A stretch of DNA of 64,000 bases, taken from positions 15,350 through 79,349 of the forward strand of contig JACQFL010000048.1 of the NCBI GenBank assembly GCA_016200085.1, written 5' to 3'. Under the pieces are notes generated by a model that was not told where the DNA came from, made no database searches, and saw only the letters and a list, made by a program, of their open reading frames with translations. This DNA comes from Candidatus Rokuibacteriota bacterium. GTDB lineage: Bacteria; Methylomirabilota; Methylomirabilia; Rokubacteriales; CSP1-6. This document shows positions 1 to 51,213 of this stretch, in pieces (position 1 is the stretch's first letter; each line of letters starts with the position of its first letter). The position numbers and the translations under genes were made by a program.

Positions 1-506
1 GCCATGCGGCAGCGCAGCGAGTAGTACCCCGTGACCATCACGATCTCGAAGATCTCCTCATCGCTGAAGCCGACCTGGCGCAGCGTCTCGACGTTCTCGG
101 GCGTCGCCTTCGCCGGCGCCAGCGCGAGGATCTCCACGTAGCCCAGCATCGCGCGCTCCGCCTCGGGCAAGGGCAGGGCGCGCCAGTTCTGCGCCAGGGT
201 CACGACCTGCGCGGCGTCACCACCGACGATCTGACGGAGAGCCTCTCCGTGAAAGGTCGTTCAGTAGGCGCAGCGATGCAGCGCCGAGGTGAGGACGGCG
301 ATCATCTCCTGTCGGCGTTTCCCGAGGGCGCAGTGCGGGCCCCTGAGCGCGTAGAGGAGGTCGGCGAGCGCCCGCATCACCCGCGCGTTGATGCTCGCCG
401 CGCGGGCGATGTTGGACACCGAGCCGTTTTGCTGCCAGACGTGCGCATACACGTCCGCCAGCTCTCCCGTCGCCTCAGCTTCCGAGATCGTCCTGATCCA
501 GGGCAT
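1..506 (-). CDS. AhpD-like / carboxymuconolactone decarboxylase family selenoprotein. It is partial and runs off the window start, with an in-frame TGA at 261..263 read as Sec.
   Basis: Minus ORF 261..878 carries the C-terminal AhpD-like core (MPWIRTISEAEATGELADVYAHVW...ALHRCAY) and stops at a TGA exactly where the CxxCxxxH motif needs its second Cys (HRCAY-U-TTFHGEAL). The same frame continues without a stop down to position 1 (…LRQIVGG…EEIFEIVMVTGYYSL…). There is a GGAAGGAGAGG Shine-Dalgarno sequence before the ATG at 504-506. Confidence 0.65.
234..250 (-). other. SECIS-like hairpin downstream of the Sec-UGA of the AhpD-like gene
   Basis: Minus-strand RNA reads UGA ACG ACC UUU C ACGGAGA-GGC-UCUCCGU. 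This is a perfect 7-bp stem with a GGC loop, starting about 10 nt after the UGA. Confidence 0.5.
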
Positions 507-910
507 CGTCCTCTCCTTCCTGATGGGAGTGGTCGAGGGAGACCGCCCGCCCGGCGGGAGGCGTTCGAAGCGTTCCCCCGGCGCCGCGTCAGCGGCGGGC
601 GTGTCGCCAAGGAGAGCGGCAGGGTGCTCCGCGCGACGCCGGTCATCGTACACCAGACACCGGGCGCCACTTCCGACCGGTGTGGGTGAAGTGCAGGACG
701 CCAACAGTCGTCTCGTGGCAGAACCTGTCGAGCCGCCGACCGGCGTCTTCGTCTCGCGCAGCGCGCCGAGCCATGGACGGGTATCCGCCGACGAGTCCTG
801 GCCCCGGCGCTCGCCTGGCTCCGGCGGTGAGGCGGGTCTCGGGGAATAAAGCTGGCACCTGGGCTGTTCTCCGAGCACGCACGAATCTCACCTTGCCGCG
901 GGAGGGACGC

Positions 911-1405
911 ATGAAGGGTTGGGGTCGGACCGTGGGGCTGACGGCGACGGCACTGGTCATGGGCGTCGGTGGGGCGTGGGCGCAGCAGCCTGCCAAGGGC
1001 ACCCCGGCAACGGTGACGGGGCGCGTCGTCGACAACATCTGCATGCTCGGCATGGGGCTCAAGGGCGAGGGACATCGGGAGTGTGCGATCGGCTGCGACA
1101 AGGCCGGTGTGCGCATGGCGCTCCTGGACGAGAAGGCCAACGTGCTTTACACGCTGATGGCCGACAAGCCGTTCGTCGATCCCAACGCCCAGATCCGCGA
1201 GTACTTCGAGCGCGTCGTGACGATCAAGGGCGACCTCTACAGCGCGCCGGGCGGCCAGAAGGTCCTCGCCATCAAGGAAGTGCAGGCGGCCCAGGCGGGC
1301 GCGGCGGCGAACCCCTGCGCCGCGAAGAATCCGTGTGCCACGAAGAATCCCTGTGCGGCCAGGAATCCTTGCGCCGCCAAGAAGCCGGCCAGCGCGACGA
1401 AGTAG
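911..1405 (+). CDS. Secreted protein with a cysteine-containing N-domain and a C-terminal tandem NPCA(A/T)(K/R) hexapeptide repeat
   Basis: GGGAGGG Shine-Dalgarno sequence before the ATG at 911. Signal peptide MKGWGRTVGLTATALVMGVGGAWAQQ. C-terminus is NPCAAKNPCATKNPCAARNPCAAKKP. Confidence 0.7.
   Translation: MKGWGRTVGLTATALVMGVGGAWAQQPAKGTPATVTGRVVDNICMLGMGLKGEGHRECAIGCDKAGVRMALLDEKANVLYTLMADKPFVDPNAQIREYFERVVTIKGDLYSAPGGQKVLAIKEVQAAQAGAAANPCAAKNPCATKNPCAARNPCAAKKPASATK
1309..1386 (+). repeat. 18-bp in-frame tandem repeat encoding NPCAAK units (about 4 copies)
   Basis: aacccctgcgccgcgaag / aatccgtgtgccacgaag / aatccctgtgcggccagg / aatccttgcgccgccaag. Confidence 0.7.
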
Positions 1406-1474
1406 CCAGGCGAGGCCGGGTGCCCTCGGCGGACCGAAGCGAGGCAGGCGCCGCTTCGCTTCGGCCCTCGCCTC

Positions 1475-1752
1475 TCAGCACGCCGTCATCTCGACGACGT
1501 TCATCTCCGCCCCGTCACCCCAGGGCGTGCACGGCAGGCCACTCGCTTCCGACGCCCTCTCACCCGTGCTCGCGGGCGGTGACAGGATGCAGGCGATCAG
1601 CGGGTTGTCGCGCGAGGTGAGCGCGGTGATGCTGGCAGGGGGCGGCTCGGTCGCGGCGGGGACGATGGGCGGCGGCTCCGAGACGCTCGAGAGCACCTCG
1701 AGCGCCACGAAGAGGGTGCCGGCCGCCAGCGCGCTGGCCGTGACGATACGCA
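1475..1752 (-). CDS. Small hypothetical secreted protein (about 92 aa)
   Basis: Internal Met of minus ORF 1475..1867 (MRIVTASALAAGTLFVALEVLSS...), with a signal-peptide-like N-terminus. No homology recognised. Confidence 0.3.
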
Positions 1753-2409: not shown

Positions 2410-2493
2410 ACCTGACGATCTAACCCGTCCCGGCCGTGGTTTATTCCGGACGCAGTGGAATGGCGTCACACGGTCGCGTGTTCTGTTCTGTTG

Positions 2494-3711
2494 ATGACGT
2501 TCCGCCGCGCGCTCTTGCGGGGGGCATCGCTGCTGCTGGTGCTTGGCGGCACGGCTCCGGCGGGCGGAGATGCTGGCGCCGACCGGGCCTTTCTCGATCG
2601 GCACTGGCGGAGACCGGTCCCGCCACAGGGCGAGGCGCCGGCGCGGTGGTCCGCACTCGAGAAGTCGCTCGCGCCGCAGAGCTGCGGGGCCTGCCATCAG
2701 GCCCAGCTCGCCGACTGGAAGACGAGCGTCCACGCGCGCAGCTTGGGGCCGGGCGTCGCCGGCCAGCTGGTGGAGATGCGCCGGAGCGATCCCGAATCCT
2801 TCCGGCTCTGTCTGTCCTGCCATGGGCCCCTGGCGGAGCAGCAGCCGGACATCGAGCGCCACGGCCGCTCCGTGCCGAATCCCGAGTTCGACCCCGGCCT
2901 CCAGGCCGCGGGTCTCGCGTGCGCGGTGTGCCACGTGCGCCAGCACGAACGGTTCGGCCCGCCCCGCCGGATCGGGATGGCGAAGGTCACGACGCCGCGG
3001 CCATCGCTTCCCCATGGTGGGGTGACGCGGACGCCGGCGTTCTCGCAGTCGACGTTCTGCACGAGCTGCCACCAGTTCTCCTCCGATGGCTTCGCGCTGA
3101 ACGGGAAGCTGCTGGAGAACACCTACGAGGAGTGGAAGCTCAGCGCCGCCGCGCGCGTGCGCCGGCAGTGTCAGGACTGTCACATGCCCGAGCGCCGGCA
3201 CCTCTGGCGCGGCATCCACGATCCGGACATGGTGAAGTCGGGCGTCGAGATCCTCGCGACGACGGCCCAGCGCTCGTATCGGCCGGGTGACGAGCTTGTG
3301 GCCACGATCGTGGTCAGGAGCGTCGGGGTCGGCCACGATTTCCCGACCTACGTCACGCCACGCGTCGTCGTGCGCGCGGCCCTGATCGACAACACGGGGG
3401 CTGCCGTGGGGGGCAGTGGGCAGGAGTACGCCATCGCACGCGAGGTCACTCTCGACCTGTCGCGGGAGATCTCGGACACCCGCATCCCTCCCGGTGGCAG
3501 CGCGAGCTTTACGTACCGGCGACGGCTCGAGCGCAAAGGCCTTTCGCTCAGCGTGAGCGTCATGGTGTATCCCGACCATTTCTACACGGGGTTCTTCGAG
3601 TCGCTGCTCGCCTCCGGTGCGGGCGCAGGCGCCCCCCAGATCCGCGAGGCGCTCGCGGCGAGCCGGCGATCGGCCTTCGAGATCTTCCGGAAGACCGTGC
3701 GCCTGACGTGA
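2494..3711 (+). CDS. Pentaheme c-type cytochrome (five CxxCH motifs), secreted
   Basis: CGACH, CLSCH, CAVCH, CTSCH, CQDCH. Signal peptide MTFRRALLRGASLLLVLGG. A GTG at 2455 is an alternative start. Confidence 0.8.
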   Translation: MTFRRALLRGASLLLVLGGTAPAGGDAGADRAFLDRHWRRPVPPQGEAPARWSALEKSLAPQSCGACHQAQLADWKTSVHARSLGPGVAGQLVEMRRSDPESFRLCLSCHGPLAEQQPDIERHGRSVPNPEFDPGLQAAGLACAVCHVRQHERFGPPRRIGMAKVTTPRPSLPHGGVTRTPAFSQSTFCTSCHQFSSDGFALNGKLLENTYEEWKLSAAARVRRQCQDCHMPERRHLWRGIHDPDMVKSGVEILATTAQRSYRPGDELVATIVVRSVGVGHDFPTYVTPRVVVRAALIDNTGAAVGGSGQEYAIAREVTLDLSREISDTRIPPGGSASFTYRRRLERKGLSLSVSVMVYPDHFYTGFFESLLASGAGAGAPQIREALAASRRSAFEIFRKTVRLT

Positions 3712-5033: not shown

Positions 5034-6188
5034 ATGGTTCTGCCGCTCGCGGGTTTGATGCACGTCGTGGTTCTTGCGCGTCGCCTTCTGTTGAAAGTCG
5101 CCACGGTGTTGGTCCTCCTTCCGGCGCTTGCCATCAGTCCCGCATTCGCGCACGACGGTCCCCCCGCTGGCGCCGTCGTACCCAGCGAGCGCATCGATCC
5201 GCGCCAGGTCTATCCCTTCGGCGTCGTCGCCGGCGGGGGCGGACACTTCCACGTCCTGCAGGTCATGCCAGGGGAGCGACGCGTCTTTGCCGGCACCCAT
5301 CTGGGGCTGTTCGTGAGCGAAGACCGAGGGCTCACGTGGCGTCTCGTCGCGCCTCGCTTCAGCGGCGTCGACGTCCACGGCCTCGCACGCGATGCGGCCA
5401 CGGGAGCGTTGTATGCGGCGACCCACGGACAGGGCCTTCTCGTCAGCGAGGACGGTGGCACCCGGTGGCGGGACGGCTCGGCGAGCCTGCCCGGCCGCGA
5501 CCTGCACGCCCTCGCCCTCGATGCCCATGATCGGGGCACGATCTACGTCTGGTCCGTTGGCCATGGTCTCTTCGCTCGGCGAGGTCGCGTGCGGATGTGG
5601 GAACGCCTGGCGGGGCGAGAGGCCCTCACCCAGGTGGAGAGCCTCGCCATCCATCCACAGAATTCGCGGCGGCTCTACGCGGGAACCGCGGCCGGGGTGC
5701 TTGTCAGCGAGGACGGCGGCCGCCGGTGGATGCTACCGCCCGGCGGCCTCGAGCGTCGGACCGCCGGCGTCGCGGTCGTCCCGAGCCGGCCTGACATGGT
5801 CCTCGCCGCGACGTTCGACGGGGTCTTCGCCGGTCACGCAGCCGGCGCGGACTGGAAGCCGCTCGAGGCAGCGCCCTCGTGGTGGGGCCCGATCGTGGGG
5901 TTCGCGTTCGTCGGCGATCGGCCCGACACCGTCTTTGCCGTCTCGCACGAGGGACCGGTCGTCATGCGCGCGGTGTGGGATGGCCCCTGGATACCTCTCG
6001 CGGCGCGACCGCCGGCCACGAGTCGGCGAATCAGCGCCCGCCCTTCGGGGCCGGTCCACGAGCGCGGACCAACCGCAGTGGTGAGCACCCGGCCGTCACG
6101 GCCGATCAAAACCACGGTGGGCGTCGCCCGGACGCCATACGCCCGGGCGACCCGCATGTCGGGATCGAGCACCACGGGAGCGCTGTAG
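5034..6188 (+). CDS. BNR/Asp-box repeat (sialidase-like / Ycf48-like beta-propeller) secreted protein. The 3' end is uncertain.
   Basis: Repeated SxDxGxTW motifs (SEDRGLTW, SEDGGTRW, SEDGGRRW). Signal peptide (...KVATVLVLLPALAISPAFA). A TTG about 57 nt downstream of the ATG is an alternative start. The tail beyond about 6000 overlaps the convergent TlpA-like gene and may not be coding. Confidence 0.6.
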   Translation: MVLPLAGLMHVVVLARRLLLKVATVLVLLPALAISPAFAHDGPPAGAVVPSERIDPRQVYPFGVVAGGGGHFHVLQVMPGERRVFAGTHLGLFVSEDRGLTWRLVAPRFSGVDVHGLARDAATGALYAATHGQGLLVSEDGGTRWRDGSASLPGRDLHALALDAHDRGTIYVWSVGHGLFARRGRVRMWERLAGREALTQVESLAIHPQNSRRLYAGTAAGVLVSEDGGRRWMLPPGGLERRTAGVAVVPSRPDMVLAATFDGVFAGHAAGADWKPLEAAPSWWGPIVGFAFVGDRPDTVFAVSHEGPVVMRAVWDGPWIPLAARPPATSRRISARPSGPVHERGPTAVVSTRPSRPIKTTVGVARTPYARATRMSGSSTTGAL

Positions 6189-6553
6189 CCACGCGCCTTC
6201 ACCTCGCGGGCGACAGTCGTGGCGTCTTCACCGACATCGACGAGCACCGCGGTGAAGCCGTCCGGGGCGAGCTCCTTCGCCATCGCGTCGATCGAGGGCA
6301 ACTCCCTCGCGCAGTGCGGTCACCAGGTGGCCCAGAAATAGAGCATGACGAGATGGCCGCGGAACTGATCCAGCGACACCGTGTGCCCGGTGACGTCGCG
6401 CAGGCTGAAGGCCGGCGCCGTCACGGGCTCGGCCGCGGGCGCCACCCCCAGCGCGTCCCACAGCGCCGAGTCCGTCGTGGCACCCGCCGCGGCGGAGGCG
6501 ACGAACAGGACGCCGAGGACCACACTCGCCCAGGGGGGTCGCCGCGTGATCAC
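5834..6553 (-). CDS. TlpA/thioredoxin-like (redoxin) selenoprotein, periplasmic. In-frame TGA at 6320..6322 read as Sec (U-P-H-C). The 3' end is uncertain.
   Basis: ORFs 6320..6553 and 5834..6301 are in the same frame, separated only by a TGA: ...LVMLYFWATW-U-PHCARELPSIDAMAKELAP...ATPTVVLIGRDGRV. This is the thioredoxin WCxxC motif with the first Cys coded as UGA. Signal peptide MITRRPPWASVVLGVLFVASAAAGA. Confidence 0.65.
6293..6309 (-). other. SECIS-like hairpin downstream of the Sec-UGA of the TlpA-like gene
   Basis: UGA CCG CAC UGC G CGAGGG-AGUUG-CCCUCG. A 6-bp stem with a 5-nt loop, starting 10-11 nt after the UGA. Confidence 0.5.
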
Positions 6554-7150: not shown

Positions 7151-7933
7151 TCAGAGACGGTTGCGCTCGGCACGCTCGAGGCGGAGCCGGTCGGCGCACT
7201 CGAGGAGCGCGTCGTAATCAAGCGCCGACACCAGGCCGAAGACCGCGCGGCCGTCCGTCCACGCCACCGTCCGATAACCCTTCAGGTCTTTCGCGAAGTA
7301 CTCCTGCCCGCGGAAGGTCACAGGTCGGCCGGTCAGGTGCGCGTCGGGGCCGCTGACCGGCACGACGAACACCGACAGGAGCGTCCGGCCCTTCTCGTAG
7401 AAGATGTAGGCCACTTTGCGCTCGTGTGCCTCGGCGAGGCGGCCGCCGATCAACTGGATGCCCGCCGGCGAGTAGTCCGGAACGGCCACGCGAAGGCCGG
7501 CCCGCTGCTGGAACCACTGCTCGAGCTCGCCGCGGTCATTCGAGGCGAGCTCCACGGGCCGCTCGATCTGGGCGTAGGCGATGTGCTTGTCGACGAGCTC
7601 GGCCAGGAGCGGGGCGGAGGGCCGGCTCGCGGGCAAGAGGACCGCCACGAGGAGCGCCGCCACCGCGGCGGCGAGCGGCGCCACGAGCCAGGGGCGCCAC
7701 GCGACGCGGCGCTGCTCGCGGCGCACGAGCGCGGTGATCTTCGCGCGGAACTCCGGCGACGCCGCTTCCCGGGGCTGGCGGCGGAGGACCTCGCGGAACT
7801 GGCGCTCGCGCCCGAGGAGACCGGCGCAGTCCCGGCACCCCGCGAGGTGCGCGTCCGCCGCCGCCATCGCCTCCACCGGCAACTCGCCATCGAGGTAGGG
7901 ATGCACGCTCGCCGCGAATTCTCTGCAGCTCAT
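7151..7933 (-). CDS. Anti-sigma factor: zf-HC2 (HxxxCxxC) N-domain, one TM segment, periplasmic C-domain
   Basis: MSCREFAASVHPYLDGELPVEAMAAADAHLAGCRDCAG... 4-nt overlap with the upstream ECF sigma gene. Confidence 0.8.
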   Translation of the reverse strand: MSCREFAASVHPYLDGELPVEAMAAADAHLAGCRDCAGLLGRERQFREVLRRQPREAASPEFRAKITALVRREQRRVAWRPWLVAPLAAAVAALLVAVLLPASRPSAPLLAELVDKHIAYAQIERPVELASNDRGELEQWFQQRAGLRVAVPDYSPAGIQLIGGRLAEAHERKVAYIFYEKGRTLLSVFVVPVSGPDAHLTGRPVTFRGQEYFAKDLKGYRTVAWTDGRAVFGLVSALDYDALLECADRLRLERAERNRL

Positions 7934-8523
7934 TCCTCGTCCCTCACGTATCCATGCTCGCGCGCCAGCCGCGTGAGGGCCTGCCGCAGCAGGTGCCGGC
8001 CCCGCGACAGGCGGGACATCACGGTGCCCACCGGGCAGCCGACGACGTCGGCGACCTCCCGATAGCTGAGGCCCTCGAGGTCCACGAGCACCACGGCCTC
8101 GCGGAACACCAGGGGCAGGCCTTTGAGCGCCCGATCGACGTCACCATGCAGGACGGTCTGGAAGAACGCTTCCTCCGGGTTGACGAACCCCATCGACGTC
8201 GCGCTGGGCTGGCCGGTCTCCCACACGGCCGCATCGGGCTCCAGGACCTCACGCCCGTCCTTGCGCAGCCGATTCAGGAACACGTTTCTGAGAATCGTGA
8301 GGAGCCAGGCGCGACAGTTGGTCCCCGGGTTGAACCGGTGAAAGTTGCGGAACGCCCGCAGCACCGCCTCCTGGACCACATCCTCGGCCTCCCCCCGGCT
8401 GCGCGTCAGACGAAGCGCCGTCTGGTAGAGCGTCTCGAGATGGACGAGGGCCGTCCGCTCGAACTCGCTGCCCTCCGATGCCGCGGTCCGCCAGGGAATC
8501 GGAAACCCTCCTGTCGTGAGAAC
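7930..8523 (-). CDS. ECF (sigma-70 family, RpoE-like) sigma factor
   Basis: Regions 2 and 4 are recognisable (LVHLETLYQTALRLT..., LPLVFREAVVLVDLEGLSYREVADVVGCPVGTVMSRLSRGRHLLRQ). The GTG at 8523 is a guess. The ORF extends to 8682. Confidence 0.7.
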   Translation of the reverse strand, partial: VLTTGGFPIPWRTAASEGSEFERTALVHLETLYQTALRLTRSRGEAEDVVQEAVLRAFRNFHRFNPGTNCRAWLLTILRNVFLNRLRKDGREVLEPDAAVWETGQPSATSMGFVNPEEAFFQTVLHGDVDRALKGLPLVFREAVVLVDLEGLSYREVADVVGCPVGTVMSRLSRGRHLLRQALTRLAREHGYVRDEE

Positions 8524-8566
8524 ACCACGACCCGCGCGGATATTCCGGCCTCGGGGGTGGCCCCGC

Positions 8567-9655
8567 TCAGGGAGCCGTACCGAGGATCGTCGTCGGGTGA
8601 AACGCCGCCCAGGCGAACCAGAACGCATCGACGTGAGGGATCGCACGCAGCCGGCGTCCCGCCAGCGGCCCCTTGACCCCACGGCCGAGCAGGTTCCAGG
8701 TCGTGCCGGTCTCCCGGTCGCGGAAGCCCCCCTCGTTTGCCTCGAATGTCAGGCTCTTTCCGTCGAGCATTCGACTGTAGACGGCGGTGGCGCCGACCGC
8801 GCGCGACCGCTCGATCCGCGCATCGTCGAGCGCCGAGAGGGCGCCCGGCTGAAAGAAGATCACGAGCGCCTCGCGGTCGATGGCGTCGTGCAGCACCCGC
8901 CGCTCGGCCAGAATCGGCCAGGGGTACGCCTTGGCCGTCTCGCCGATCTTCACGCCGACCACGCGCTCCTTCGGTGGCCGACGCGTATCCGGCCGACCGT
9001 TGAAGAGGAACGGACGAAGCTCCGGCTGATCGTATGACCCGTAGGGATTGGCGCCGTACTGGCGCTGGTGTCCCGTCTCCCGCGACAGGACCTTGCCGTC
9101 CGGGTGGGCCGCCTTCCAGTCCGCGAACGCGATCGTGTTGGCGGGCACCAGCGCGAGCCGCGTCCCCGCACGCTGGCCGACGAGGGCCCGACCTTCCATC
9201 TGCGCCCAGAGCGAGTGGCTCTGACGGTCGTACATGACGAGGTCGCTCTTGTACACCTTGCCCGACGTCCCGAAGTCGAGCGTCACGTCTCCGACCACCC
9301 GGTCGAACGCGATGCCCGAGTTGCGCAGCGGACAGAAGGTCACGACGACAGGCTTGCCCCCGACGGTGTCGTTCACGATCTCGTGCCACATGAGAATCTG
9401 GAGCGGATACGCCCGCGCATCGCCGTTGATCTCCAGCGCGAGCACGGGCTCCTGGGGCACCAGCCACGCGGCTTGACGCGCGGCGATGAACGCCGGTCGA
9501 TCGATCGCCGGGATGCCGTCTGGAGGCGGGCCGCCGGGGATGATCTCGTCGAGCGGGACCAGCGCCTTGCTCTCGTCGGTCCTGAGCCGCTCGGCGGTCG
9601 CCGCCGAAGCGATCAGGACGGTCAGCGCCACCATGATCGGTACGCGTTTCAACAT
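8567..9655 (-). CDS. DUF3179 family secreted protein
   Basis: Internal Met MLKRVPIMVALTVLIASAATA of ORF 8567..10048. Confidence 0.6.
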   Translation of the reverse strand: MLKRVPIMVALTVLIASAATAERLRTDESKALVPLDEIIPGGPPPDGIPAIDRPAFIAARQAAWLVPQEPVLALEINGDARAYPLQILMWHEIVNDTVGGKPVVVTFCPLRNSGIAFDRVVGDVTLDFGTSGKVYKSDLVMYDRQSHSLWAQMEGRALVGQRAGTRLALVPANTIAFADWKAAHPDGKVLSRETGHQRQYGANPYGSYDQPELRPFLFNGRPDTRRPPKERVVGVKIGETAKAYPWPILAERRVLHDAIDREALVIFFQPGALSALDDARIERSRAVGATAVYSRMLDGKSLTFEANEGGFRDRETGTTWNLLGRGVKGPLAGRRLRAIPHVDAFWFAWAAFHPTTILGTAP

Positions 9656-24797: not shown

Positions 24798-24827
24798 GAC
24801 CCCGCGAGGTGTATACTCCGGAGAGTC

Positions 24828-24915
24828 GTCGTGGGGGGAGGAATCCTGAGAACCGGGTGCGGCCCGGGACCCCTCGAACCTGCTCTGGATAATCCCAGCG
24901 AAGGGAACACGCCGA
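24828..24915 (+). promoter_or_regulatory. TPP (THI-box) riboswitch upstream of thiS
   Basis: ggggaggaatcCTGAGAaccgggtgcggcccgggACCCctcGAACCTGctCTGGATAATcCCAGCGaAGGGAA. The CGGCCGCGGAG immediately 5' of the thiS ATG can pair with an upstream GGCCGCG element, which would sequester the Shine-Dalgarno sequence. Confidence 0.85.
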
Positions 24916-24980
24916 CGGATCGCGGCCGCGCCCGAAGTCTCGGGACAGCGGCCGTTGCTGTTTCCGGCCGCGGAGCGGGC

Positions 24981-25181
24981 ATGAAGGTCAGTGTCAACGG
25001 ACGCGCGATGAACCTCGACGACGACCTCAGCGTGGAAGCGCTGCTCCAGCAGCTCGGCGTGAATCGCCGGTTCATGGCCGTGGCCGTGAACCGCGAGATC
25101 ACCCCGCGCACGCGGTACGGGCAGACGGTGCTGCGCGAGGGCGATCGGGTGGAGATCGTGCGTCCGATGGGAGGGGGCTGA
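24981..25181 (+). CDS. thiS: Thiamine biosynthesis sulfur-carrier protein ThiS
   Basis: 66 aa, ends GG, immediately upstream of thiG. Confidence 0.85.
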
Positions 25182-25182
25182 G

Positions 25183-25965
25183 ATGTACGACACGTCGCTC
25201 GTCATCGGCGGCAAGGAGTTCTCGTCGCGGCTGATCGTGGGCACGGGCAAGTACTCGTCGAACGAGGTCATGCGCCAGGCCCACGAGGCCTCGGGCGCCC
25301 AGGTGGTCACCGTCGCGGTGCGCCGGGTGAGCCTGCCGGGCACCGGCGAGTCCATCCTCGACTTCATCGACACCAACCGCTACACGCTGCTCCCGAACAC
25401 CGCCGGCTGCTACACCGCGGACGAGGCCATCCGCACCGCGTACCTGGCGCGCGAGGCCGGGCTCGGCGAGATGGTCAAGCTCGAGGTCATCGGCGACTCG
25501 CGCACGCTGTTTCCCGACGTGGCCGGGCTGCTCGAGGCGACGAAGACGCTGGCGCGCGAGGGCTTCACGGTCATGCCCTACACCAACGACGACCCCGTGA
25601 TGGCCAAGCGCCTGGAAGACGCGGGGGCGGCGGTGGTCATGCCGCTCGGCGCGCCGATCGGCTCCGGGCTCGGGATCCGCAACCCGTACAACATCAAGAT
25701 CATCCTCGAGACCGTGTCGGTGCCCGTCATCGTCGATGCCGGGGTCGGCACGGCCTCGGACGCCGCCATCGCCATGGAGCTCGGCTGCGACGGCGTGCTC
25801 ATGAACACGGCCATCGCGGGCGCGCGCGACCCGGTGGCCATGGCGACGGCGATGAAGCAGGCCGTGGAAGCCGGACGGCTCGCCTTCAAGGCCGGGCGCA
25901 TGCCCAAGCGCCTCTACGCGAGCGCGTCCTCGCCGCTCGAGGGCGTGCCCGATTGGTCGAGCTGA
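25183..25965 (+). CDS. thiG: Thiazole synthase ThiG
   Basis: [24 protein letters not shown]... a full-length ThiG match. Confidence 0.9.
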
Positions 25966-29027: not shown

Positions 29028-29144
29028 GAGCCCCCGCCCGCTGGGCTCCCGGGCTAGAATGAAGGGGTCCTAAAAAGTTGGGTCGAGGGGGGCCTCCGGG
29101 CTAGGATCGGTCCCTCGTGACCCGTCCAAGGAGTCCGCTGATCC

Positions 29145-30590
29145 ATGGCTGATCTCGCTGTCGCCCGCCCCGAGCGCTTCTTCGCCGACCGGTTCAACGT
29201 GACGCCGTCCCTGATGGAGCGGCTGCTCGGTTCCTCGCTCCGCGGGCGCGTGGACGACGCCGACGTCTACCTCGAGTACCGTATCAACGAAGAGCTGGTA
29301 CTCGAGGAAGGAACAGTCAAAAAGGCCTCTCGGCACGTCAGCCAGGGCGCCGGGGTCCGGGCCCAGGCCGGCACCCGCACGGGCTACGCCCACACCGACG
29401 ACATCTCGATCGGGAACCTCGAGGAGGCCGCACGCCAGGCGCGTTCCATCGCCGATCAGTCGAGCGCCTCGGGGATCCTCGCCGTCCCCGGCCGGCGCCC
29501 GCACGACCTCTACGCGCTGGCCGAGCCGCCCATCGTCACGGAGCTCACCCGCAAGGTCGATCTGCTCCGGCGGGTGGACCGGGCCGCGCGCGAGGCCGAT
29601 CCGCGGGTCAAGCAGGTCATCGCCAGTATTGGCAGCGAGGACGTCGTGATGCTGATCGCCACCGCGGGCGGCTGGACGGTCGGGGACGTGCGCCCGCTGG
29701 CCCGGCTCAACGTCACGGTGATCGCCGAAGAGAACGGCAAGCGCGAGATCGGGTCGTACGGCGGCGGCGGCCGCGTGGCGTTCGACTTCTTCCTCGAGCA
29801 GGATCGCTGGAGGCGCTTCGCCACCGAGGCCGCGCGCCAGGCCACCCTCAAGCTCGGCGCGCTCGACGCGCCGGCCGGCACCATGACGGTGGTGCTCGGC
29901 CCGGGCTGGCCGGGGATCCTGCTCCACGAGGCGATCGGGCACGGCCTCGAGGGTGACTTCAACCGCAAGGGCGTGTCCGCCTTCGCCGGGCGCATGGGCC
30001 AGAAGGTCGCCTCCGAGCTGGTGACGGTGATCGACGACGGGACGATCCCGAACCGCCGCGGCTCGCTCAACGTCGACGACGAGGGCACGCCCACCGGGCG
30101 CACCGTGCTCATCGAGAAGGGCGTGCTCGTGGGCTACATGCAGGACAAGCTCAACGCCCGCCTCATGGGCGCGGCCCCGACGGGCAACGGCCGCCGCGAG
30201 TCGTACGCCTATCCGGCGATGCCGCGCATGACGAACACGTTCATGCTCGCGGGGGAGGATGACCCCGAGGACATCATCCGCTCGGTCAAGCACGGGCTCT
30301 ACGCGGTGACGTTCGGCGGCGGCCAGGTCGACATCACCAGCGGCAAGTTCGTGTTCTCGGCCACCGAGGCCTACCTGATCGACGACGGACGCATCGGCGC
30401 CCCGCTGAAAGGGGCCACGCTGATCGGCAACGGGCCCGACGCCCTGACGCGGGTGAGCCGCGTGGGGCGCGACCTCGCGCTCGACGAGGGCGTGGGCACG
30501 TGCGGCAAGGACGGGCAATCCGTGCCCGTGGGCGTGGGACTGCCGACGATCCGCATCGACGGCATGACGGTCGGCGGGAGCCAGGTGTGA
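29145..30590 (+). CDS. tldD: Metalloprotease TldD
   Basis: 481 aa, canonical TldD with HEAIGHGLE-type motif. Confidence 0.9.
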   Translation: MADLAVARPERFFADRFNVTPSLMERLLGSSLRGRVDDADVYLEYRINEELVLEEGTVKKASRHVSQGAGVRAQAGTRTGYAHTDDISIGNLEEAARQARSIADQSSASGILAVPGRRPHDLYALAEPPIVTELTRKVDLLRRVDRAAREADPRVKQVIASIGSEDVVMLIATAGGWTVGDVRPLARLNVTVIAEENGKREIGSYGGGGRVAFDFFLEQDRWRRFATEAARQATLKLGALDAPAGTMTVVLGPGWPGILLHEAIGHGLEGDFNRKGVSAFAGRMGQKVASELVTVIDDGTIPNRRGSLNVDDEGTPTGRTVLIEKGVLVGYMQDKLNARLMGAAPTGNGRRESYAYPAMPRMTNTFMLAGEDDPEDIIRSVKHGLYAVTFGGGQVDITSGKFVFSATEAYLIDDGRIGAPLKGATLIGNGPDALTRVSRVGRDLALDEGVGTCGKDGQSVPVGVGLPTIRIDGMTVGGSQV

Positions 30591-31945
30591 GCGGCGTCGA
30601 TCCCGGGCTGCTCGTCTCCGTCCTGCGGCGCGCGACGGCGCGCGGGGCCACGGCGGCCGACGGCTTCCTGGTGGAGGATCGCCACTTCAGCGCCATGGTG
30701 CGGCTGGGCGAGGTCGACACGGTGACCCACTCGCAGGACCAGCGGCTCTCGCTGCGCGTCTTCTACGGGCGCGCCACCGCGGCCGCCTCGAGCTCGGATC
30801 TGTCCCCCGCCTCGCTCGAGCGCGTGGTGGACGAGGCCACCGCGCTGGCCCGCATCACCGCCGAGGACGAGCACGCGGGCCTGCCGGACCCGGCCGAGGT
30901 GATCGAGCGCGTGCCGGACCTCGACCTCGAGGACCGCGAGGCGCCGGCGCTGTCGCCCGAGGAGAAGATCGACATCGCGCGGCGGGCCGAGGCGGCCGCG
31001 CTGGCCAGCGACCCGCGCATCAGCAACTCCGAGGGCGCGGAGTCCTTCGACCGGCGCTCGCACTACGTGTACGCCGCCGCGCACGGCTCGGGTCGCGTCT
31101 TCGCGGGCGACTACGCCACCACCTCCTTCGGCATCACCTGCTCGCCGGTGGCGGCGCAGGACGGCGAGATGCAGCGGGATTCCTGGTACTCGATGGCCCG
31201 CAAGCGCGCCGGGCTGGACGACCCGGCGTCGGTGGGGCGCACGGCGGCCGCGCGCGCGCTGCGCCGCCTGGGCGCGCGCAAGGTCAAGACCACCGAGGTG
31301 CCGGTGATCTTCGATCCCGAGAACGCGGCGAGCCTGCTCCGGTCGGTCGCGGCGGCGGCCAGCGGGCCGAGCCTGTACCGCCGCGCCTCGTTCCTCGTCG
31401 AGCGCCTCGGCCAGCGCATCGCCGCCTCCGGCGTCACCATCGTGGACGACGGCCTGCGCCCGGGGGCGCTCGGCTCACGGCCGTTCGACGGCGAGGGGCT
31501 CCCGACGCGCCGCACCGCGCTCGTCGAGGACGGCGTGCTGGTGACGTACCTGCTCGACACCTACAGCGCCCGCAAGCTCGGCCTGGCCTCGACCCACCAC
31601 GGCACCCGCGACGGCGCCGGGGTGACGGTGGGGACCACCAACCTCATGCTGCTGCCGGGCACGGCCTCGCCCGACGACCTCATCGCGTCGGTCGACAACG
31701 GCTTCTACGTCACCGAGCTGATCGGCTTCGGGGTCAACGGCGTCACCGGCGACTACTCTCGCGGCGCCGTCGGGCTGTGGATCGAGAACGGCAAGCTGGC
31801 GTACCCGGTCGAGGAGGTCACGGTGGCCGGCAACCTGCTGGAGATGCTCCTGGCCATCGACGGGGTCGCCAGCGACCTCGTGCTGCGCGACCGGACCGCG
31901 GCGCCAACGCTGAAGATCGCCAAGATGGTCGTCGCGGGAGCGTGA
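30587..31945 (+). CDS. pmbA: Metalloprotease PmbA/TldE
   Basis: GTG start overlapping the tldD stop (GTGA). Typical PmbA sequence. Confidence 0.85.
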   Translation: MSGVDPGLLVSVLRRATARGATAADGFLVEDRHFSAMVRLGEVDTVTHSQDQRLSLRVFYGRATAAASSSDLSPASLERVVDEATALARITAEDEHAGLPDPAEVIERVPDLDLEDREAPALSPEEKIDIARRAEAAALASDPRISNSEGAESFDRRSHYVYAAAHGSGRVFAGDYATTSFGITCSPVAAQDGEMQRDSWYSMARKRAGLDDPASVGRTAAARALRRLGARKVKTTEVPVIFDPENAASLLRSVAAAASGPSLYRRASFLVERLGQRIAASGVTIVDDGLRPGALGSRPFDGEGLPTRRTALVEDGVLVTYLLDTYSARKLGLASTHHGTRDGAGVTVGTTNLMLLPGTASPDDLIASVDNGFYVTELIGFGVNGVTGDYSRGAVGLWIENGKLAYPVEEVTVAGNLLEMLLAIDGVASDLVLRDRTAAPTLKIAKMVVAGA

Positions 31946-47572: not shown

Positions 47573-49135
47573 TCAGGCGTCCAGCGAGTCCATGAAGCCG
47601 GCGATCTGCTCGACGCGCACGCCCGAGACCGCGATCTCCGGCGCGTAGATCACCTCGTCGGCCGCCCACACGATCGTGCCCTTGGCCTCTCTCGTCACGC
47701 CCATGACGTTCTCGAGCACGGTGGCGATGTTGTCGTTGATACGCAGCGCGTTGGCGCGCAGGGGCGCCGCCAGGCGGCCGTCGCGGATGACCCAGGAGTC
47801 GCCGACCACGGTGCAGGTGAAGTCGCCGGCGCGCAGGCCGTTGACCGGGTACGTGTACCAGATCCGGCCGACGTAGAGGCCGTCGCGCACCGTGCGGATC
47901 AGCTCCTCGAGGCTCACGGCCTCCGCGCCCTGCACCACCACGTTGGAGGCCGCCACGCCGGGGCCGCGGTCGAACTGGCGGCCGCCGCCGGCGCCGAAGC
48001 GGAAGCCGTTGCGCGGCACGAGCGCCCGCGCGGCCTCGTCGCCCGTCGCGCCGAGCTTGGCGGCCAGCGCCGGGTCGCGCAGCAGGCGCTGGGTCTGGTA
48101 CCAGCTGGACAGGCAGCCGACGAGCACGCCGTCCCTGATCAGGTCGGTGCGTCCCGTCGGCAGGCCCTCGCACGTGATGCCCTTGGAGCCGGTGTAGCCG
48201 GGGACGTTGCCCGCGTCCCAGACGCTCAGGCGCGGCGAGGCCACCTGCCGGCCGAGGCGGCCGAGGAACGGCGTGTTCGAGGCGTAGAAGGTGCCGGCGG
48301 AGCAGGCGGGCACGATGACGTTGTTGAGCAGGTCGCTGACCGGCTGCTTGCCGAAGATGACCGTGTACTCGCCCGAGGGCACGCGCTCGCCGCCGACGGC
48401 GGCGATGGCGTTGCCCGCCGCCTCGATGCCGGCCTCGTCGGAGAACTCCTCGAGGCGCGTGCCCGTCGACCAGCCCGAGCCCTTGGCGTCGCGCGCTTCC
48501 ACCATCGCCGTCACGAACGCCGTGATCAGGGTGGACTCGTCCGTCTGCGCCTCGGGCATGCGCGTCGAGACGATGGCGATGCGCTCCTGGAGGATCGTGA
48601 CGTCGCCGCCGAGGATGAGCCCCAGCGCGCGCAGCGCCTCGTCGCTGCCCGCCAGCTCCGCCAGCCTGGACGAGGCGAGGAAGGTGCGGAGCGCGCCGTT
48701 GACGATCGTCCAGCCCGCGCCCACGAGGGCCTCGTCGTCGATGGCCAGGAGCCTCGGGTCGGCGTAGTCCGTGAGGGTGCGCCGCTCGCGCGCCGGCTCG
48801 GGCAGGGAGACGAAGTCCGGATCGCGCACCGCCGCGGCGCGCGCCTTGTCGAGCGCGCGGCGGGCGCCCGCCTCGCCGAGGTCGGTGGGCTCGCTGCCGA
48901 AGCCGACCACCGGGCCCTGGGGCCCGTCGAAGACCACGTGGAGGCCGAGGCCCGAGGACTCGTCGGACTTCGGCTCCTCGACCCCGTTCGAGGGGATGTG
49001 CGAGGTGTAGCAGAGCCGGGTGAGCAGGCTCGCGTTCGAGGCGACGAAGACCTCGACCTCGCGCACGCCGGGCGCCCGGCGCGCGCCCTCGAAGGCGATG
49101 CGCGCGGCGCGCTCGAGCTCGGTCAGGGTCCGCAC
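47573..49135 (-). CDS. TldD/PmbA-family metallopeptidase homolog (divergent, 520 aa)
   Basis: TldD/PmbA fold, lacking a signal peptide. GAGGTGA Shine-Dalgarno sequence overlapping the upstream rhodanese stop. GTG start. Confidence 0.75.
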   Translation of the reverse strand: MRTLTELERAARIAFEGARRAPGVREVEVFVASNASLLTRLCYTSHIPSNGVEEPKSDESSGLGLHVVFDGPQGPVVGFGSEPTDLGEAGARRALDKARAAAVRDPDFVSLPEPARERRTLTDYADPRLLAIDDEALVGAGWTIVNGALRTFLASSRLAELAGSDEALRALGLILGGDVTILQERIAIVSTRMPEAQTDESTLITAFVTAMVEARDAKGSGWSTGTRLEEFSDEAGIEAAGNAIAAVGGERVPSGEYTVIFGKQPVSDLLNNVIVPACSAGTFYASNTPFLGRLGRQVASPRLSVWDAGNVPGYTGSKGITCEGLPTGRTDLIRDGVLVGCLSSWYQTQRLLRDPALAAKLGATGDEAARALVPRNGFRFGAGGGRQFDRGPGVAASNVVVQGAEAVSLEELIRTVRDGLYVGRIWYTYPVNGLRAGDFTCTVVGDSWVIRDGRLAAPLRANALRINDNIATVLENVMGVTREAKGTIVWAADEVIYAPEIAVSGVRVEQIAGFMDSLDA

Positions 49136-49139
49136 GGCG

Positions 49140-49559
49140 TCACCTCGCGGGCGTGCCCGCCGCGCGGCCCTCGACGGGGTAGCCCTTCTCCTGCCAGCCC
49201 GGCAGGCCCTCGTCGAGCACCTTGTGGTTCCGCCACCCCATCGCGTACAGCATGTTGCTGGCCCCCCGGGACAGCGCGTGGGGGCAGCCTCAGTAGAAGA
49301 CGGCGAGCCCCGTCTTCGTGATCTCGCCGGCGCGCTCGGGCACCGCGCGCAGCGGCATCGAGCGCGCGCCCTTGATGTGCAGCTCCGCGTACTCGGCCCA
49401 GTGGCGCACGTCGATGATGTCCGCCTTCGTGCCCGCGGCGAGGGCGGCGTGCAGCTCGGCGACCTTGATGAAGGCCACGGGGGACTCGGGCGGCGCCGCG
49501 GGCGCGGCGCCCAGCAGCACGCCGGCCGCGGCGAGCACGGGGATCAGGGTGCGGCGCAT
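49140..49559 (-). CDS. Periplasmic single-domain rhodanese (sulfurtransferase) selenoprotein. In-frame TGA at 49290..49292 at the active-site Cys position (VFY-U-GCPHALSRG).
   Basis: Signal peptide MRRTLIPVLAAAGVLLGAAPAAP. The rhodanese core (ADIIDVRHWAEYAELHIKGARSMPL...) runs up to the TGA. The same frame continues for 49 more codons through the rest of the domain (GASNMLYAMGWRNHKVLDEGLPGWQEKGYPV) to a TGA at 49140. It sits between two TldD/PmbA-like genes with 4-nt gaps. Confidence 0.65.
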
Positions 49560-49563
49560 GGGG

Positions 49564-51126: not shown

Positions 51127-51213
51127 GCCGCTCCTTTCTCAGGCCACCCACGCCGGTCCCGGACTCGCGGACCCCGCTACCATGAACCCCCGCTACAATG
51201 TGTCCCGCTACAA

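What the first reader, a model, noticed from the sequence alone, without database searches (positions are those of the whole stretch)
1..506. AhpD-like (CMD family) gene with UGA at the second Cys of the CxxCxxxH motif, so probably a selenocysteine
The minus-strand frame reads ...ALHRCAY-TGA-TTFHGEAL... The stop falls exactly on the second cysteine of the AhpD catalytic motif, giving C-A-Y-U-T-T-F-H, which is CxxUxxxH. The same frame then continues without a stop for 86 more codons to the window edge (...EEIFEIVMVTGYYSL...), which is typical CMD-domain sequence. A perfect 7-bp hairpin with a GGC loop starts about 10 nt after the UGA, at SECIS-like spacing. AhpD-like selenoproteins are an established, if uncommon, family. 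A gene broken by chance would not place the stop on the redox Cys and leave 260 nt of clean downstream frame.
Basis: partly seen in the sequence, partly recalled or inferred. Interest (0 to 1): 0.8.

Follow-up and report, generated by a model that had tools for sequence, protein, structure and literature searches.

The report
AhpD-like selenoprotein gene, known family

Summary
A minus-strand gene starts at ATG 506 and has an in-frame TGA at 263..261 (codon 82). The frame stays open for 86 more codons to the window edge. A perfect 7-bp hairpin with a GGC loop begins 10 nt after the TGA.

With Cys in place of the stop, the protein scores 105.7 bits on NCBIfam TIGR01926 (cutoff 81.8), and the match runs across the TGA. 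The stop falls on the second Cys of the motif E-x11-C-x-Y-C-x3-H.

Of 80 relatives from genome assemblies, 70 in more than ten phyla carry TGA at this column and 10 carry TGC or TGT. The TGA forms keep the hairpin in register, with compensatory changes. The Cys forms lack it. The hairpin meets all four published criteria for a bacterial SECIS element. The sequence downstream of the TGA is under purifying selection.

Three more TGA-interrupted redox genes lie in the window, and a fifth lies just outside it. No selA, selB, selC or selD is in the window, so the Sec machinery could not be tested here.

"AhpD-like protein, TIGR01926, CxxU" is a catalogued selenoprotein family, and Methylomirabilota (GTDB's name for the phylum) is reported as selenoprotein-rich. 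I rate this a new member of a known kind, of low interest.

The parts
1..506 (-). Partial coding sequence (codons 1-168 of 205) of an AhpD-like selenoprotein. The last 37 codons and the true stop lie beyond base 1 of the window.
   Evidence: Translation. TIGR01926 scores 105.7 bits against a cutoff of 81.8 over residues 2-167, and Pfam CMD also hits. The full length is read on the identical contig L001 at 618..1235.
511..520 (-). Shine-Dalgarno-like GGAAGGAGAG, 4 nt upstream of the ATG at 506..504
   Evidence: Read directly from the sequence
306..308 (-). GAG, Glu67. It is the proton-relay glutamate, 12 residues before the first Cys, the same spacing as Glu118 in M. tuberculosis AhpD and Glu36 in PA0269.
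   Evidence: Sequence. Relay residues are as described in PMC3141380.
270..272 (-). TGC, Cys79, the first residue of the CxxU redox motif and the presumed resolving Cys
   Evidence: It aligns with the first Cys of CxxC in the Cys homologues and in PDB 6K40 and 2OYO.
261..263 (-). In-frame UGA, codon 82, read as selenocysteine. It occupies the position of the second, attacking Cys of CxxC.
   Evidence: TGA is at the same column in 70 of 80 relatives and TGC/TGT in 10. The same TGA is in three independent assemblies.
234..250 (-). SECIS hairpin: 5' arm 250..244 (ACGGAGA), loop 243..241 (GGC), 3' arm 240..234 (UCUCCGU). It overlaps the codons for H86-G-E-A-L-R91.
   Evidence: Folds. The hairpin alone is -8.4 kcal/mol. 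In 70 sequences 82.8% of cells are paired, against 33-51% when the partner is slid, with compensatory changes at three pairs. Sec forms average 5.8 of 7 pairs and Cys forms 2.5 of 7. In a register-free fold, Sec forms have a median of -8.25 kcal/mol and Cys forms -2.95, p = 7.8e-6.
249..251 (-). CAC, His86, the conserved histidine of CxxUxxxH. Its last two bases (250, 249) are the first two of the SECIS 5' arm.

Best explanation
Bases 1..506 (minus strand) are the first 168 codons of a 205-codon gene for an AhpD-like, all-helical thiol/selenol oxidoreductase of the TIGR01926 'peroxidase-related enzyme' family. Codon 82 of this gene is UGA and is decoded as selenocysteine.

Decoding (inferred from the standard bacterial pathway). 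The hairpin at 250..234 places its GGC loop 17 nt after the UGA. It acts as the SECIS element that recruits SelB-GTP-Sec-tRNA(Sec) to the ribosome, so Sec is inserted instead of terminating.

Chemistry (inferred from homologues). The active site is E67...C79-A-Y81-U82...H86. It matches, residue for residue, the proton relay of P. aeruginosa PA0269 (E36, C48, Y50, C51, H55) and M. tuberculosis AhpD (E118, C130, H132, C133, H137). Sec sits where Cys133 sits, the residue that attacks the peroxiredoxin partner. Sec82 would therefore be the nucleophile that reduces an oxidised peroxiredoxin or a peroxide. Cys79 would resolve the intermediate into a selenenylsulfide, and an unidentified reductant would recycle the enzyme.

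Likely partner (inferred from gene neighbourhood). A Prx-like selenoprotein gene (W-U-P-Y-C) lies about 1 kb downstream on the same contig and is again within 3 kb in two other Rokubacteria species.

Shown here: the gene, the UGA at the redox Cys column, the conservation of that UGA, the conserved SECIS-like hairpin, and selection on the downstream part. Inferred: actual Sec insertion, the catalytic roles, and the partner.
For: - Family HMM across the stop: TIGR01926 scores 105.7 bits (cutoff 81.8) over residues 2-167. TIGR00778 (AhpD core) scores 31.8 bits (cutoff 27.8) over residues 61-92. Pfam CMD also hits.
- Cys homologues P0004, P0005 and P0010 (CAYC or CGYC) and PDB 6K40 and 2OYO (E = 7e-25 and 2.5e-24) align their second Cys with the UGA.
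- Conservation of the codon: 70 of 80 relatives carry TGA at this column and 10 carry TGC/TGT. The TGA forms come from Rokubacteria, Chloroflexota, Acidobacteriota, Gemmatimonadota, Planctomycetota, Marinimicrobia, Bacillaceae and others.
- The protein database holds the orthologues only as fragments that end at ...HRCAY or begin just after the stop.
- SECIS hairpin: 7 bp, GGC loop, 17 nt spacing, -8.4 kcal/mol. This meets all four criteria quoted in PMC13188914.
- Pairing across sequences: 82.8% of cells are paired, against 33-51% in the slid controls. Compensatory changes are CG<->UA (10 sequences), AU<->CG/GC (24) and GC<->CG (3). Some of these pair a synonymous site with an amino-acid-changing site.
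- Cys forms lack the hairpin.
- Downstream of the UGA, comparison with L004-L006 gives 26-31 synonymous and 36-45 non-synonymous codon differences over about 120 codons.
- TGA is otherwise a normal stop here: 31 of 42 long coding segments end in TGA, and FabI, TldD and MoeA end at TGA at full profile length.
- Other TGA-interrupted redox genes lie on the same contig. Each has a domain hit spanning its TGA: OsmC-like (NF041052, 167.7 bits), TlpA/redoxin-like, rhodanese-like and Prx-like.
- Literature: the family is listed as a selenoprotein (PMC1088965, PMC2398784, PMC13188914). A Methylomirabilota MAG is predicted to have 63 selenoproteins (PMC13188914). The relay residues are described in PMC3141380. 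Cys133 is the attacking Cys (PMC6626918).
Against: - No selA, selB or selD was found among about 50 ORFs scanned, and no tRNA is in the window. The machinery is therefore not demonstrated for this genome.
- On its own the local fold is not exceptional for this 72% G+C sequence: z = -1.2, and 21-23 of 200 shuffles fold as well.
- RNAalifold returned no consensus structure for the 70 sequences.
- The 3-nt loop is at the lower limit of the SECIS model.
- The covariation counts are confounded by shared ancestry and by coding constraints, because the hairpin encodes the conserved H-G-x-x-L.
- The 70:10 ratio is biased, because the 80 loci kept are those most similar to a Sec-form query.
- No experimental evidence for selenium in this protein exists here.
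Confidence: 0.93

Rival explanations
1. The gene is a pseudogene, or the TGA is an assembly or sequencing error. Under this reading the TGA is a nonsense mutation of a Cys codon (TGC/TGT to TGA) and the downstream frame is a decaying remnant.
For: TGA is one substitution away from TGC or TGT. Gene callers and the GenBank record treat the locus as two small hypothetical proteins. One Methylomirabilota relative (L007) keeps only the C-terminal half.
Against: The same TGA is in three assemblies from different runs and in 70 relatives across many phyla. The downstream part shows an excess of synonymous change. It also matches the family HMM to its end. A conserved hairpin accompanies the TGA but not the Cys codon.
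Confidence: 0.02
2. UGA is read through as an ordinary amino acid (Trp, Gly or Cys). This could happen by near-cognate suppression or an alternative genetic code, without selenocysteine.
For: Some uncultured bacterial lineages reassign UGA (general knowledge). The Sec machinery was not found in the window.
Against: TGA ends most genes in the window at the expected end of their family profiles, so it is a real stop in this genome. The aligned residue in homologues is always Cys, never Trp or Gly. A SECIS-type hairpin is tied specifically to the TGA forms. The four other in-frame TGAs on the contig all fall on redox Cys positions.
Confidence: 0.02
3. The locus is two separate small genes. An 81-aa N-terminal protein would end at the TGA, and an independently initiated 104-aa C-terminal protein would start at GTG 203, as in the GenBank annotation. 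Alternatively, the truncated 81-aa product could be the main product when selenium is scarce.
For: This is how the public gene calls read. Termination at UGA always competes with Sec insertion (general knowledge).
Against: A single domain model covers both halves, and full-length Cys homologues exist as one chain. The called GTG start lies inside conserved sequence, and the 20 residues between the TGA and that GTG are conserved among orthologues. These residues include the catalytic His86. An 81-aa fragment would lack half of the helical fold.
Confidence: 0.03

Closest known systems
AhpD-like selenoprotein family (TIGR01926 / COG2128, CxxU). First described from the Sargasso Sea metagenome (PMC1088965), then as 'AhpD-like 1' in the GOS survey (PMC2398784), and listed in the 2026 review (PMC13188914).
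   Same: It has the same family model, scored above cutoff. It has the same CxxU motif with Sec on the second Cys and a SECIS hairpin just downstream with G in a small apical loop. It also shares the reported tendency to lie near a Prx-like selenoprotein gene.
   Different: Nothing essential differs. This copy is from a soil or groundwater Rokubacteria (Methylomirabilota) MAG rather than marine plankton. In public gene calls it is split into two hypothetical proteins.
Deinococcus radiodurans AhpD-like protein DR1765 (PDB 6K40) and its D. geothermalis relative (PDB 2OYO)
   Same: These are the closest solved structures (E = 7e-25 and 2.5e-24 over residues 20-174). They share the ...R-C-x-Y-C-x-x-x-H-G-x-A-L-R motif region. 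According to PMC8945050, loss of DR1765 sensitises cells to H2O2 and the CxxC cysteines matter for complementation.
   Different: They have Cys, not Sec, at the second position. Their mRNA has no SECIS requirement.
Pseudomonas aeruginosa PA0269 (PDB 2O4D)
   Same: It has the same C-A-Y-C tetrad (here C-A-Y-U) and the same relay spacing, E-x11-C-x-Y-C-x3-H (PMC3141380). It was hit at E = 4.4e-7.
   Different: It is a shorter protein (165 aa) of a different subfamily. It is a Cys form with only weak peroxidase activity.
Mycobacterium tuberculosis AhpD (Rv2429)
   Same: The proton-relay residues and spacing match: E118, C130, H132, C133, H137 against E67, C79, Y81, U82, H86. Sec occupies the place of Cys133, the residue that forms the cross-link with AhpC Cys61 (PMC3141380, PMC6626918).
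   Different: Overall similarity is very low: no PDB hit at E <= 0.01 and no hit to a canonical AhpD equivalog model. The catalytic helices are at a different place in the chain. The partners known for it (AhpC, and lipoamide on SucB) are not established here.
NF041238 AhpD_rel_CFYUT, alkylhydroperoxidase-related (seleno)protein ('hypothetical protein 1' of the Sargasso Sea)
   Same: It has CxxU with nearly the same pentapeptide (C-F-Y-U-T against C-A-Y-U-T here).
   Different: It is a 357-position model with a different architecture. The score here is 38 bits against a cutoff of 175, so this gene is not a member.

Membership tests
AhpD-like selenoprotein (TIGR01926, CxxU) | Whole-protein score on TIGR01926 'peroxidase-related enzyme' at or above the curated cutoff | tested here: met
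   The score is 105.7 bits against a cutoff of 81.8, over residues 2-167 matched to profile positions 1-166 of 178, with Cys written at the UGA
AhpD-like selenoprotein (TIGR01926, CxxU) | In-frame UGA aligned with the second Cys of the CxxC motif of Cys-containing homologues | tested here: met
   Alignments with P0004, P0005 and P0010 and with PDB 6K40 and 2OYO. Of 80 relatives, 10 have TGC/TGT and 70 have TGA at this column.
AhpD-like selenoprotein (TIGR01926, CxxU) | Bacterial SECIS element immediately downstream: 3-9 nt loop, 4-16 bp stem, G in the first two loop positions, 16-37 nt from the UGA, MFE <= -7.5 kcal/mol | tested here: met
   GGC loop, 7 bp, 17 nt, -8.4 kcal/mol. Criteria are from PMC13188914. 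The hairpin is conserved with compensatory changes and is absent from Cys forms.
AhpD-like selenoprotein (TIGR01926, CxxU) | The sequence downstream of the UGA is translated, shown by conservation and purifying selection | tested here: met
   Comparison with three Rokubacteria orthologues gives 26-31 synonymous and 36-45 non-synonymous codon differences in about 120 downstream codons. The HMM match continues to the window edge.
AhpD-like selenoprotein (TIGR01926, CxxU) | The host genome encodes the Sec machinery (selA, selB, selC, selD) | not testable with these tools
   No tRNA is in the window. No sel gene is among about 50 ORFs scanned. No tRNA-Sec is in 60 related loci. Indirect support comes from four other TGA-interrupted redox genes on the contig and from the report that the phylum is selenoprotein-rich (PMC13188914).
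AhpD-like selenoprotein (TIGR01926, CxxU) | Selenium is actually incorporated at the UGA position | not testable with these tools
   This needs 75Se labelling or mass spectrometry
AhpD structural family (proton-relay active site) | Relay residues Glu, Cys, His/Tyr, Cys and His with spacing E-x11-C-x-(H/Y)-C-x3-H | tested here: met
   E67, C79, Y81, U82 and H86 are read from the sequence. The definition is from PMC3141380. The TIGR00778 core-domain model scores 31.8 bits against a cutoff of 27.8.
Canonical mycobacterial AhpD (AhpC reductase) | Sequence membership, and an operon with ahpC | tested here: not met
   No canonical AhpD equivalog model appears among the NCBIfam hits, and M. tuberculosis AhpD is not among the PDB hits at E <= 0.01. 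The nearest AhpC/TSA-family gene is a Prx-like UxxC selenoprotein about 1 kb downstream, separated by an opposite-strand HEAT-repeat gene.
gamma-Carboxymuconolactone decarboxylase (PcaC) | Decarboxylase-type motifs, and a match to a PcaC family model | tested here: not met
   Only the general Pfam CMD domain hits. There is no PcaC model among the NCBIfam hits. The CxxC-type relay present here is stated to be absent from gamma-CMD proteins (PMC3141380).
NF041238 AhpD_rel_CFYUT (seleno)protein | Score at or above the cutoff of 175 bits on the 357-position model | tested here: not met
   38.2 bits, covering only residues 3-92

The most novel reading that the evidence does not exclude
The AhpD-like selenoprotein may be the dedicated reductase of the neighbouring Prx-like (W-U-P-Y-C) selenoprotein, and perhaps also of the OsmC-like one. 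That would form a peroxide-removal relay in which both the peroxidase and its recycler use selenium. This stretch of about 66 kb holds five TGA-interrupted redox genes. One of them is a secreted rhodanese with a 'Y-U-x-C-P' active-site loop that fits none of the catalogued rhodanese selenoprotein motifs (UxxS, UxxG, CxU, UxxxxU).
Probability: 0.25. Interest if true: 0.4.

Novelty: new member of a known kind. Interest (0 to 1): 0.2.

Why it matters
The practical value is annotation. Public gene calls split this gene, and the other TGA-interrupted genes on the contig that I could check, into fragments labelled hypothetical. As a result the redox repertoire of Rokubacteria is under-read.

The comparative data also give a clean family-level picture. 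One short hairpin is held in the same register over the H-G-x-x-L codons in more than ten phyla, and it is missing whenever the codon is Cys.

Biologically, the result adds to evidence that Methylomirabilota/Rokubacteria rely heavily on selenium for peroxide and thiol redox chemistry. It does not open a new question.

Tried and rejected
- Rfam scan of the whole window found only a TPP riboswitch at 24824..24924 and nothing for the SECIS.
- Single-sequence folding statistics are not significant in this 72% G+C DNA: z = -1.2 for the AhpD-like site, and z = +0.1 and +0.45 for the OsmC-like and Prx-like sites. I relied on comparative evidence instead.
- RNAalifold gave no consensus structure on the 70-sequence alignment. 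Explicit pair counting and register-free folding were used instead.
- The search for Sec machinery found no tRNA in the window. It found no tRNA-Sec in 60 related loci and no SelA, SelB or SelD among about 50 window ORFs.
- The 113-kb NCBI contig named could not be retrieved. Only three short Logan contigs came back.
- The promoter and terminator scan of 1..1500 found nothing. The divergent intergenic region 507..913 holds only one short imperfect inverted repeat, at 657..683.
- A tblastn search for conserved neighbours across the 80 loci found Prx-like or TlpA-like genes near the gene only in the Rokubacteria and a few other loci, so there is no universal operon.
- No structure prediction was run, because solved homologues at E = 1e-24 already fix the fold.

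Full report
**What is in the sequence.** On the minus strand an ORF begins at ATG 506..504, preceded by GGAAGGAGAG at 520..511. It reads MPWIRT...EMIAVLTSALHRCAY, then TGA at 263..261 (codon 82), then TTFHGEALRQ...EEIFEIVMVTGYYSLRCRM, with no further stop for 86 codons to base 1. Ten nucleotides after the TGA lies ACGGAGA-GGC-UCUCCGU (250..234), a perfect 7-bp hairpin. The window cuts the gene. Contig L001, which is identical to window 1..1123, shows 37 more codons and a stop, for 205 residues.

**What the protein is.** With Cys written at the stop, the protein scores 105.7 bits on NCBIfam TIGR01926 'peroxidase-related enzyme' (cutoff 81.8) over residues 2-167, so the match runs across the TGA. 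It scores 31.8 bits on the AhpD core-domain model TIGR00778 (cutoff 27.8) over residues 61-92. Pfam gives CMD. The closest solved structures are the Deinococcus AhpD-like proteins 6K40 and 2OYO (E = 7e-25 and 2.5e-24), whose R-C-x-Y-C-x-x-x-H-G aligns with R-C-A-Y-U-T-T-F-H-G. The active-site string E67-x11-C79-A-Y81-U82-x3-H86 has the spacing of the proton relay described for P. aeruginosa PA0269 (E36, C48, Y50, C51, H55; also C-A-Y-C). It also matches M. tuberculosis AhpD (E118, C130, H132, C133, H137) (PMC3141380). The TGA falls where Cys133 sits, the residue that cross-links to AhpC Cys61 (PMC6626918). A nucleophilic position of this kind is where Sec usually replaces Cys.

**Is the TGA real and conserved?** The same TGA occurs in three assemblies from different sequencing runs. 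In the protein database the near relatives exist only as fragments. Some are pieces of about 100 aa that begin shortly after the stop, and others end exactly at ...HRCAY or ...HRCTY. Full-length hits (35-37% identity) carry CAYC or CGYC. A scan of one genome per species returned 200 relatives, of which the best 80 were kept. Reading the codon at the homologous column gave TGA in 70 and TGC/TGT in 10, once the eight loci missed by my first pattern were checked by eye. One locus, L007, retains only the C-terminal half. The TGA forms come from Rokubacteria, several Chloroflexota orders, Acidobacteriota, Gemmatimonadota, Planctomycetota, Marinimicrobia, Deltaproteobacteria, Actinomycetota, Halobacteroidaceae and cultured Bacillaceae. 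The 70:10 ratio is biased towards the query's clade and should not be read as a family-wide frequency.

**Is the part after the TGA translated?** Against three Rokubacteria orthologues (70-73% identity), the roughly 120 codons after the TGA show 26-31 synonymous and 36-45 non-synonymous differences. That is far more synonymous change than neutral decay would leave. TGA is otherwise an ordinary stop in this genome. Of 42 long coding segments, 31 end in TGA. FabI, TldD and MoeA stop at TGA exactly at the end of their family profiles. This rules out a reassigned code.

**The hairpin as a SECIS element.** The published bacterial model asks for four things: a 3-9 nt apical loop on a 4-16 bp stem, a G in the first two loop positions, 16-37 nt between the UGA and the loop, and MFE <= -7.5 kcal/mol (PMC13188914). 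Here the loop is GGC, the stem is 7 bp, the spacing is 17 nt, and the hairpin alone folds at -8.4 kcal/mol. Taken alone the fold is unremarkable for DNA of 72% G+C (z = -1.2), and RNAalifold found no consensus. The comparative evidence carries the argument.

- The 70 TGA forms align without gaps.
- In the named structure 82.8% of cells pair, against 33-51% when the 3' partner is slid by 1-3 columns.
- Both-sided changes occur at three pairs: CG<->UA in 10 sequences, AU<->CG/GC in 24, and GC<->CG in 3.
- Several of these pair a synonymous site with an amino-acid-changing site. For example, the third base of the His codon changes from C to U together with Arg-to-His on the other arm in the Bacillaceae.
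- Many 'unpaired' cells are an equivalent hairpin shifted by one base, as in the Acidobacteriota.
- TGA forms average 5.8 of 7 pairs and Cys forms 2.5 of 7.
- In a register-free test, nucleotides +8..+31 fold at a median of -8.25 kcal/mol in TGA forms (62 of 70 at or below -7.5). In Cys forms the median is -2.95 (one-sided Mann-Whitney p = 7.8e-6).
- 69 of 70 TGA forms have a G in the first two loop positions.

Shared ancestry, coding constraint and G+C differences inflate these numbers. Low-G+C Bacillaceae nonetheless keep the hairpin, while Cys forms encoding a similar H-x-E-A-L peptide do not.

**Does the organism use Sec?** The window contains no tRNA. No SelA, SelB or SelD appears among about 50 ORFs scanned. 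No tRNA-Sec lies near the gene in 60 related loci. The machinery is therefore untested. Indirect evidence is strong. I scanned for in-frame TGAs flanked on both sides by coding-type codon composition, and found three more such genes in the window.

- An OsmC-like gene (59708..60232, TGA 59924..59926, F-U-L-M-T) scores 167.7 bits on NF041052 'OsmC-related (seleno)protein' when read through.
- A TlpA/redoxin-like gene (6553..5834, minus strand, TGA 6322..6320, W-U-P-H-C) has Pfam AhpC-TSA and Redoxin hits spanning the TGA.
- A secreted rhodanese (49559..49140, minus strand, TGA 49292..49290, F-Y-U-G-C-P) has a Pfam Rhodanese hit spanning the TGA. Its 69%-identical metagenomic orthologue also carries TGA, and distant relatives carry Cys.
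- Just outside the window, about 1 kb downstream of the AhpD-like gene, a Prx-like gene reads W-U-P-Y-C.

The source is a Candidatus Rokubacteria MAG. That lineage is now placed in Methylomirabilota, for which a MAG with 63 predicted selenoprotein genes has been reported (PMC13188914).

**How it most likely works.** SelB carrying Sec-tRNA(Sec) binds the hairpin as the ribosome reaches UGA-82 and inserts Sec. This step is inferred from the standard bacterial mechanism. The folded all-helical protein presents Sec82 as the attacking selenolate, and Cys79 resolves the intermediate to a selenenylsulfide. These roles are inferred from the relay residues and from the roles of Cys133 and Cys130 in M. 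tuberculosis AhpD.

A plausible substrate is the neighbouring Prx-like selenoprotein. The same W-U-P-Y-C gene lies within 3 kb of the AhpD-like gene in two other Rokubacteria species, L004 and L005. A Prx-like/AhpD-like gene pair was also noted in the GOS data (PMC2398784, PMC13188914). The association is not universal across the 80 loci. The ultimate electron donor is unknown.

**Comparison with what is known, and verdict.** 'AhpD-like protein' with CxxU was reported as a new selenoprotein family from the Sargasso Sea (27 sequences; PMC1088965). It was the fourth most abundant family in the GOS survey (AhpD-like 1, COG2128, 299 sequences; PMC2398784). The 2026 review lists it with TIGR01926 as its model (PMC13188914). 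The gene here meets every family feature that can be tested from sequence.

It is not a member of three related groups:

- the CFYUT family NF041238 (38 bits against a cutoff of 175);
- canonical mycobacterial AhpD;
- the gamma-carboxymuconolactone decarboxylases.

The gene is a new member of a known kind, and the notable point is that public annotation splits it into hypothetical fragments. Interest is low, at 0.2.

Noticed in passing
window 59708..60232 (+); TGA at 59924..59926: A second selenoprotein gene, OsmC-like, reads ...YFSAALAF-U-LMT... (the UxxT motif). Read through, it scores 167.7 bits on NF041052 'OsmC-related (seleno)protein' (cutoff 95) over profile positions 2-144 of 144. A bulged hairpin, GUG-U-CCCG/GUA/CGGG-CAC, follows the UGA.
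   Followed up: yes
window 5834..6553 (-); TGA at 6320..6322: A TlpA/ResA-like secreted thiol-disulfide oxidoreductase reads ...LYFWATW-U-PHC... (UxxC). Pfam AhpC-TSA and Redoxin (88 bits each) span the TGA. It lies next to an ECF sigma factor and RsrA-like anti-sigma pair.
   Followed up: partly
window 49140..49559 (-); TGA at 49290..49292; also L084 1501..1911: A small secreted rhodanese-domain protein has TGA at the canonical active-site Cys: ...GLAVFY-U-GCPHALS.... A 69%-identical metagenomic orthologue has Y-U-T-C-P, and distant relatives have Cys. The closest NCBIfam model is the LYCAU (CxU) rhodanese selenoprotein at only 43.8 bits (cutoff 115), with Sec and Cys in the opposite order. 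This may be an uncatalogued rhodanese selenoprotein form.
   Followed up: partly
L001 2216..2710 (+), about 1 kb beyond base 1 of the window; also L004 1..213 (-) and L005 5169..5534 (-): A Prx-like (AhpC/TSA) gene has an in-frame TGA: ...YRGHW-U-PYC.... The same gene with the same TGA lies within 3 kb of the AhpD-like gene in two other Rokubacteria species. This suggests a functional pair.
   Followed up: partly
window 7154..8748 (-): An ECF sigma factor (SigH/SigE-like, best hit 158 bits) overlaps a downstream ORF that has an RsrA-type zinc anti-sigma domain (47 bits). This looks like a thiol-oxidative-stress regulator pair close to the TlpA-like selenoprotein gene.
   Followed up: no
window 914..1405 (+): A small secreted protein is transcribed divergently from the AhpD-like gene. 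Its C-terminus is made of K-N-P-C-A-A-type repeats, and it has no NCBIfam hit. Similar repeats lie near the AhpD-like gene in L006 and L007.
   Followed up: partly
window 2455..3711 (+): A multihaem c-type cytochrome shows weak similarity to the ExtKL '(seleno)protein' family NF040886 (52.9 bits, cutoff 250). No in-frame TGA was seen.
   Followed up: no
window 24824..24924 (+): A TPP riboswitch (Rfam RF00059, 56.3 bits) lies upstream of an unannotated ORF at 25090..25965.
   Followed up: no
window 1..260 (-), and protein P0001: Public records annotate the C-terminal fragment as a separate 104-aa 'hypothetical protein HY294_15155'. Gene callers also split the OsmC-like and Prx-like genes. For the OsmC-like gene this is inferred from its in-frame TGA rather than seen in a public record.
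   Followed up: yes
L007 2700..3290: A Methylomirabilota relative keeps only residues 100-193 of the AhpD-like gene, preceded by unrelated sequence and a stop. It is probably a truncated remnant.
   Followed up: no
window 29142..31945 (+) and 47573..51138 (-): There are two separate TldD/PmbA-type metalloprotease gene pairs within 20 kb. The rhodanese selenoprotein gene sits between the two genes of the second pair.
   Followed up: no
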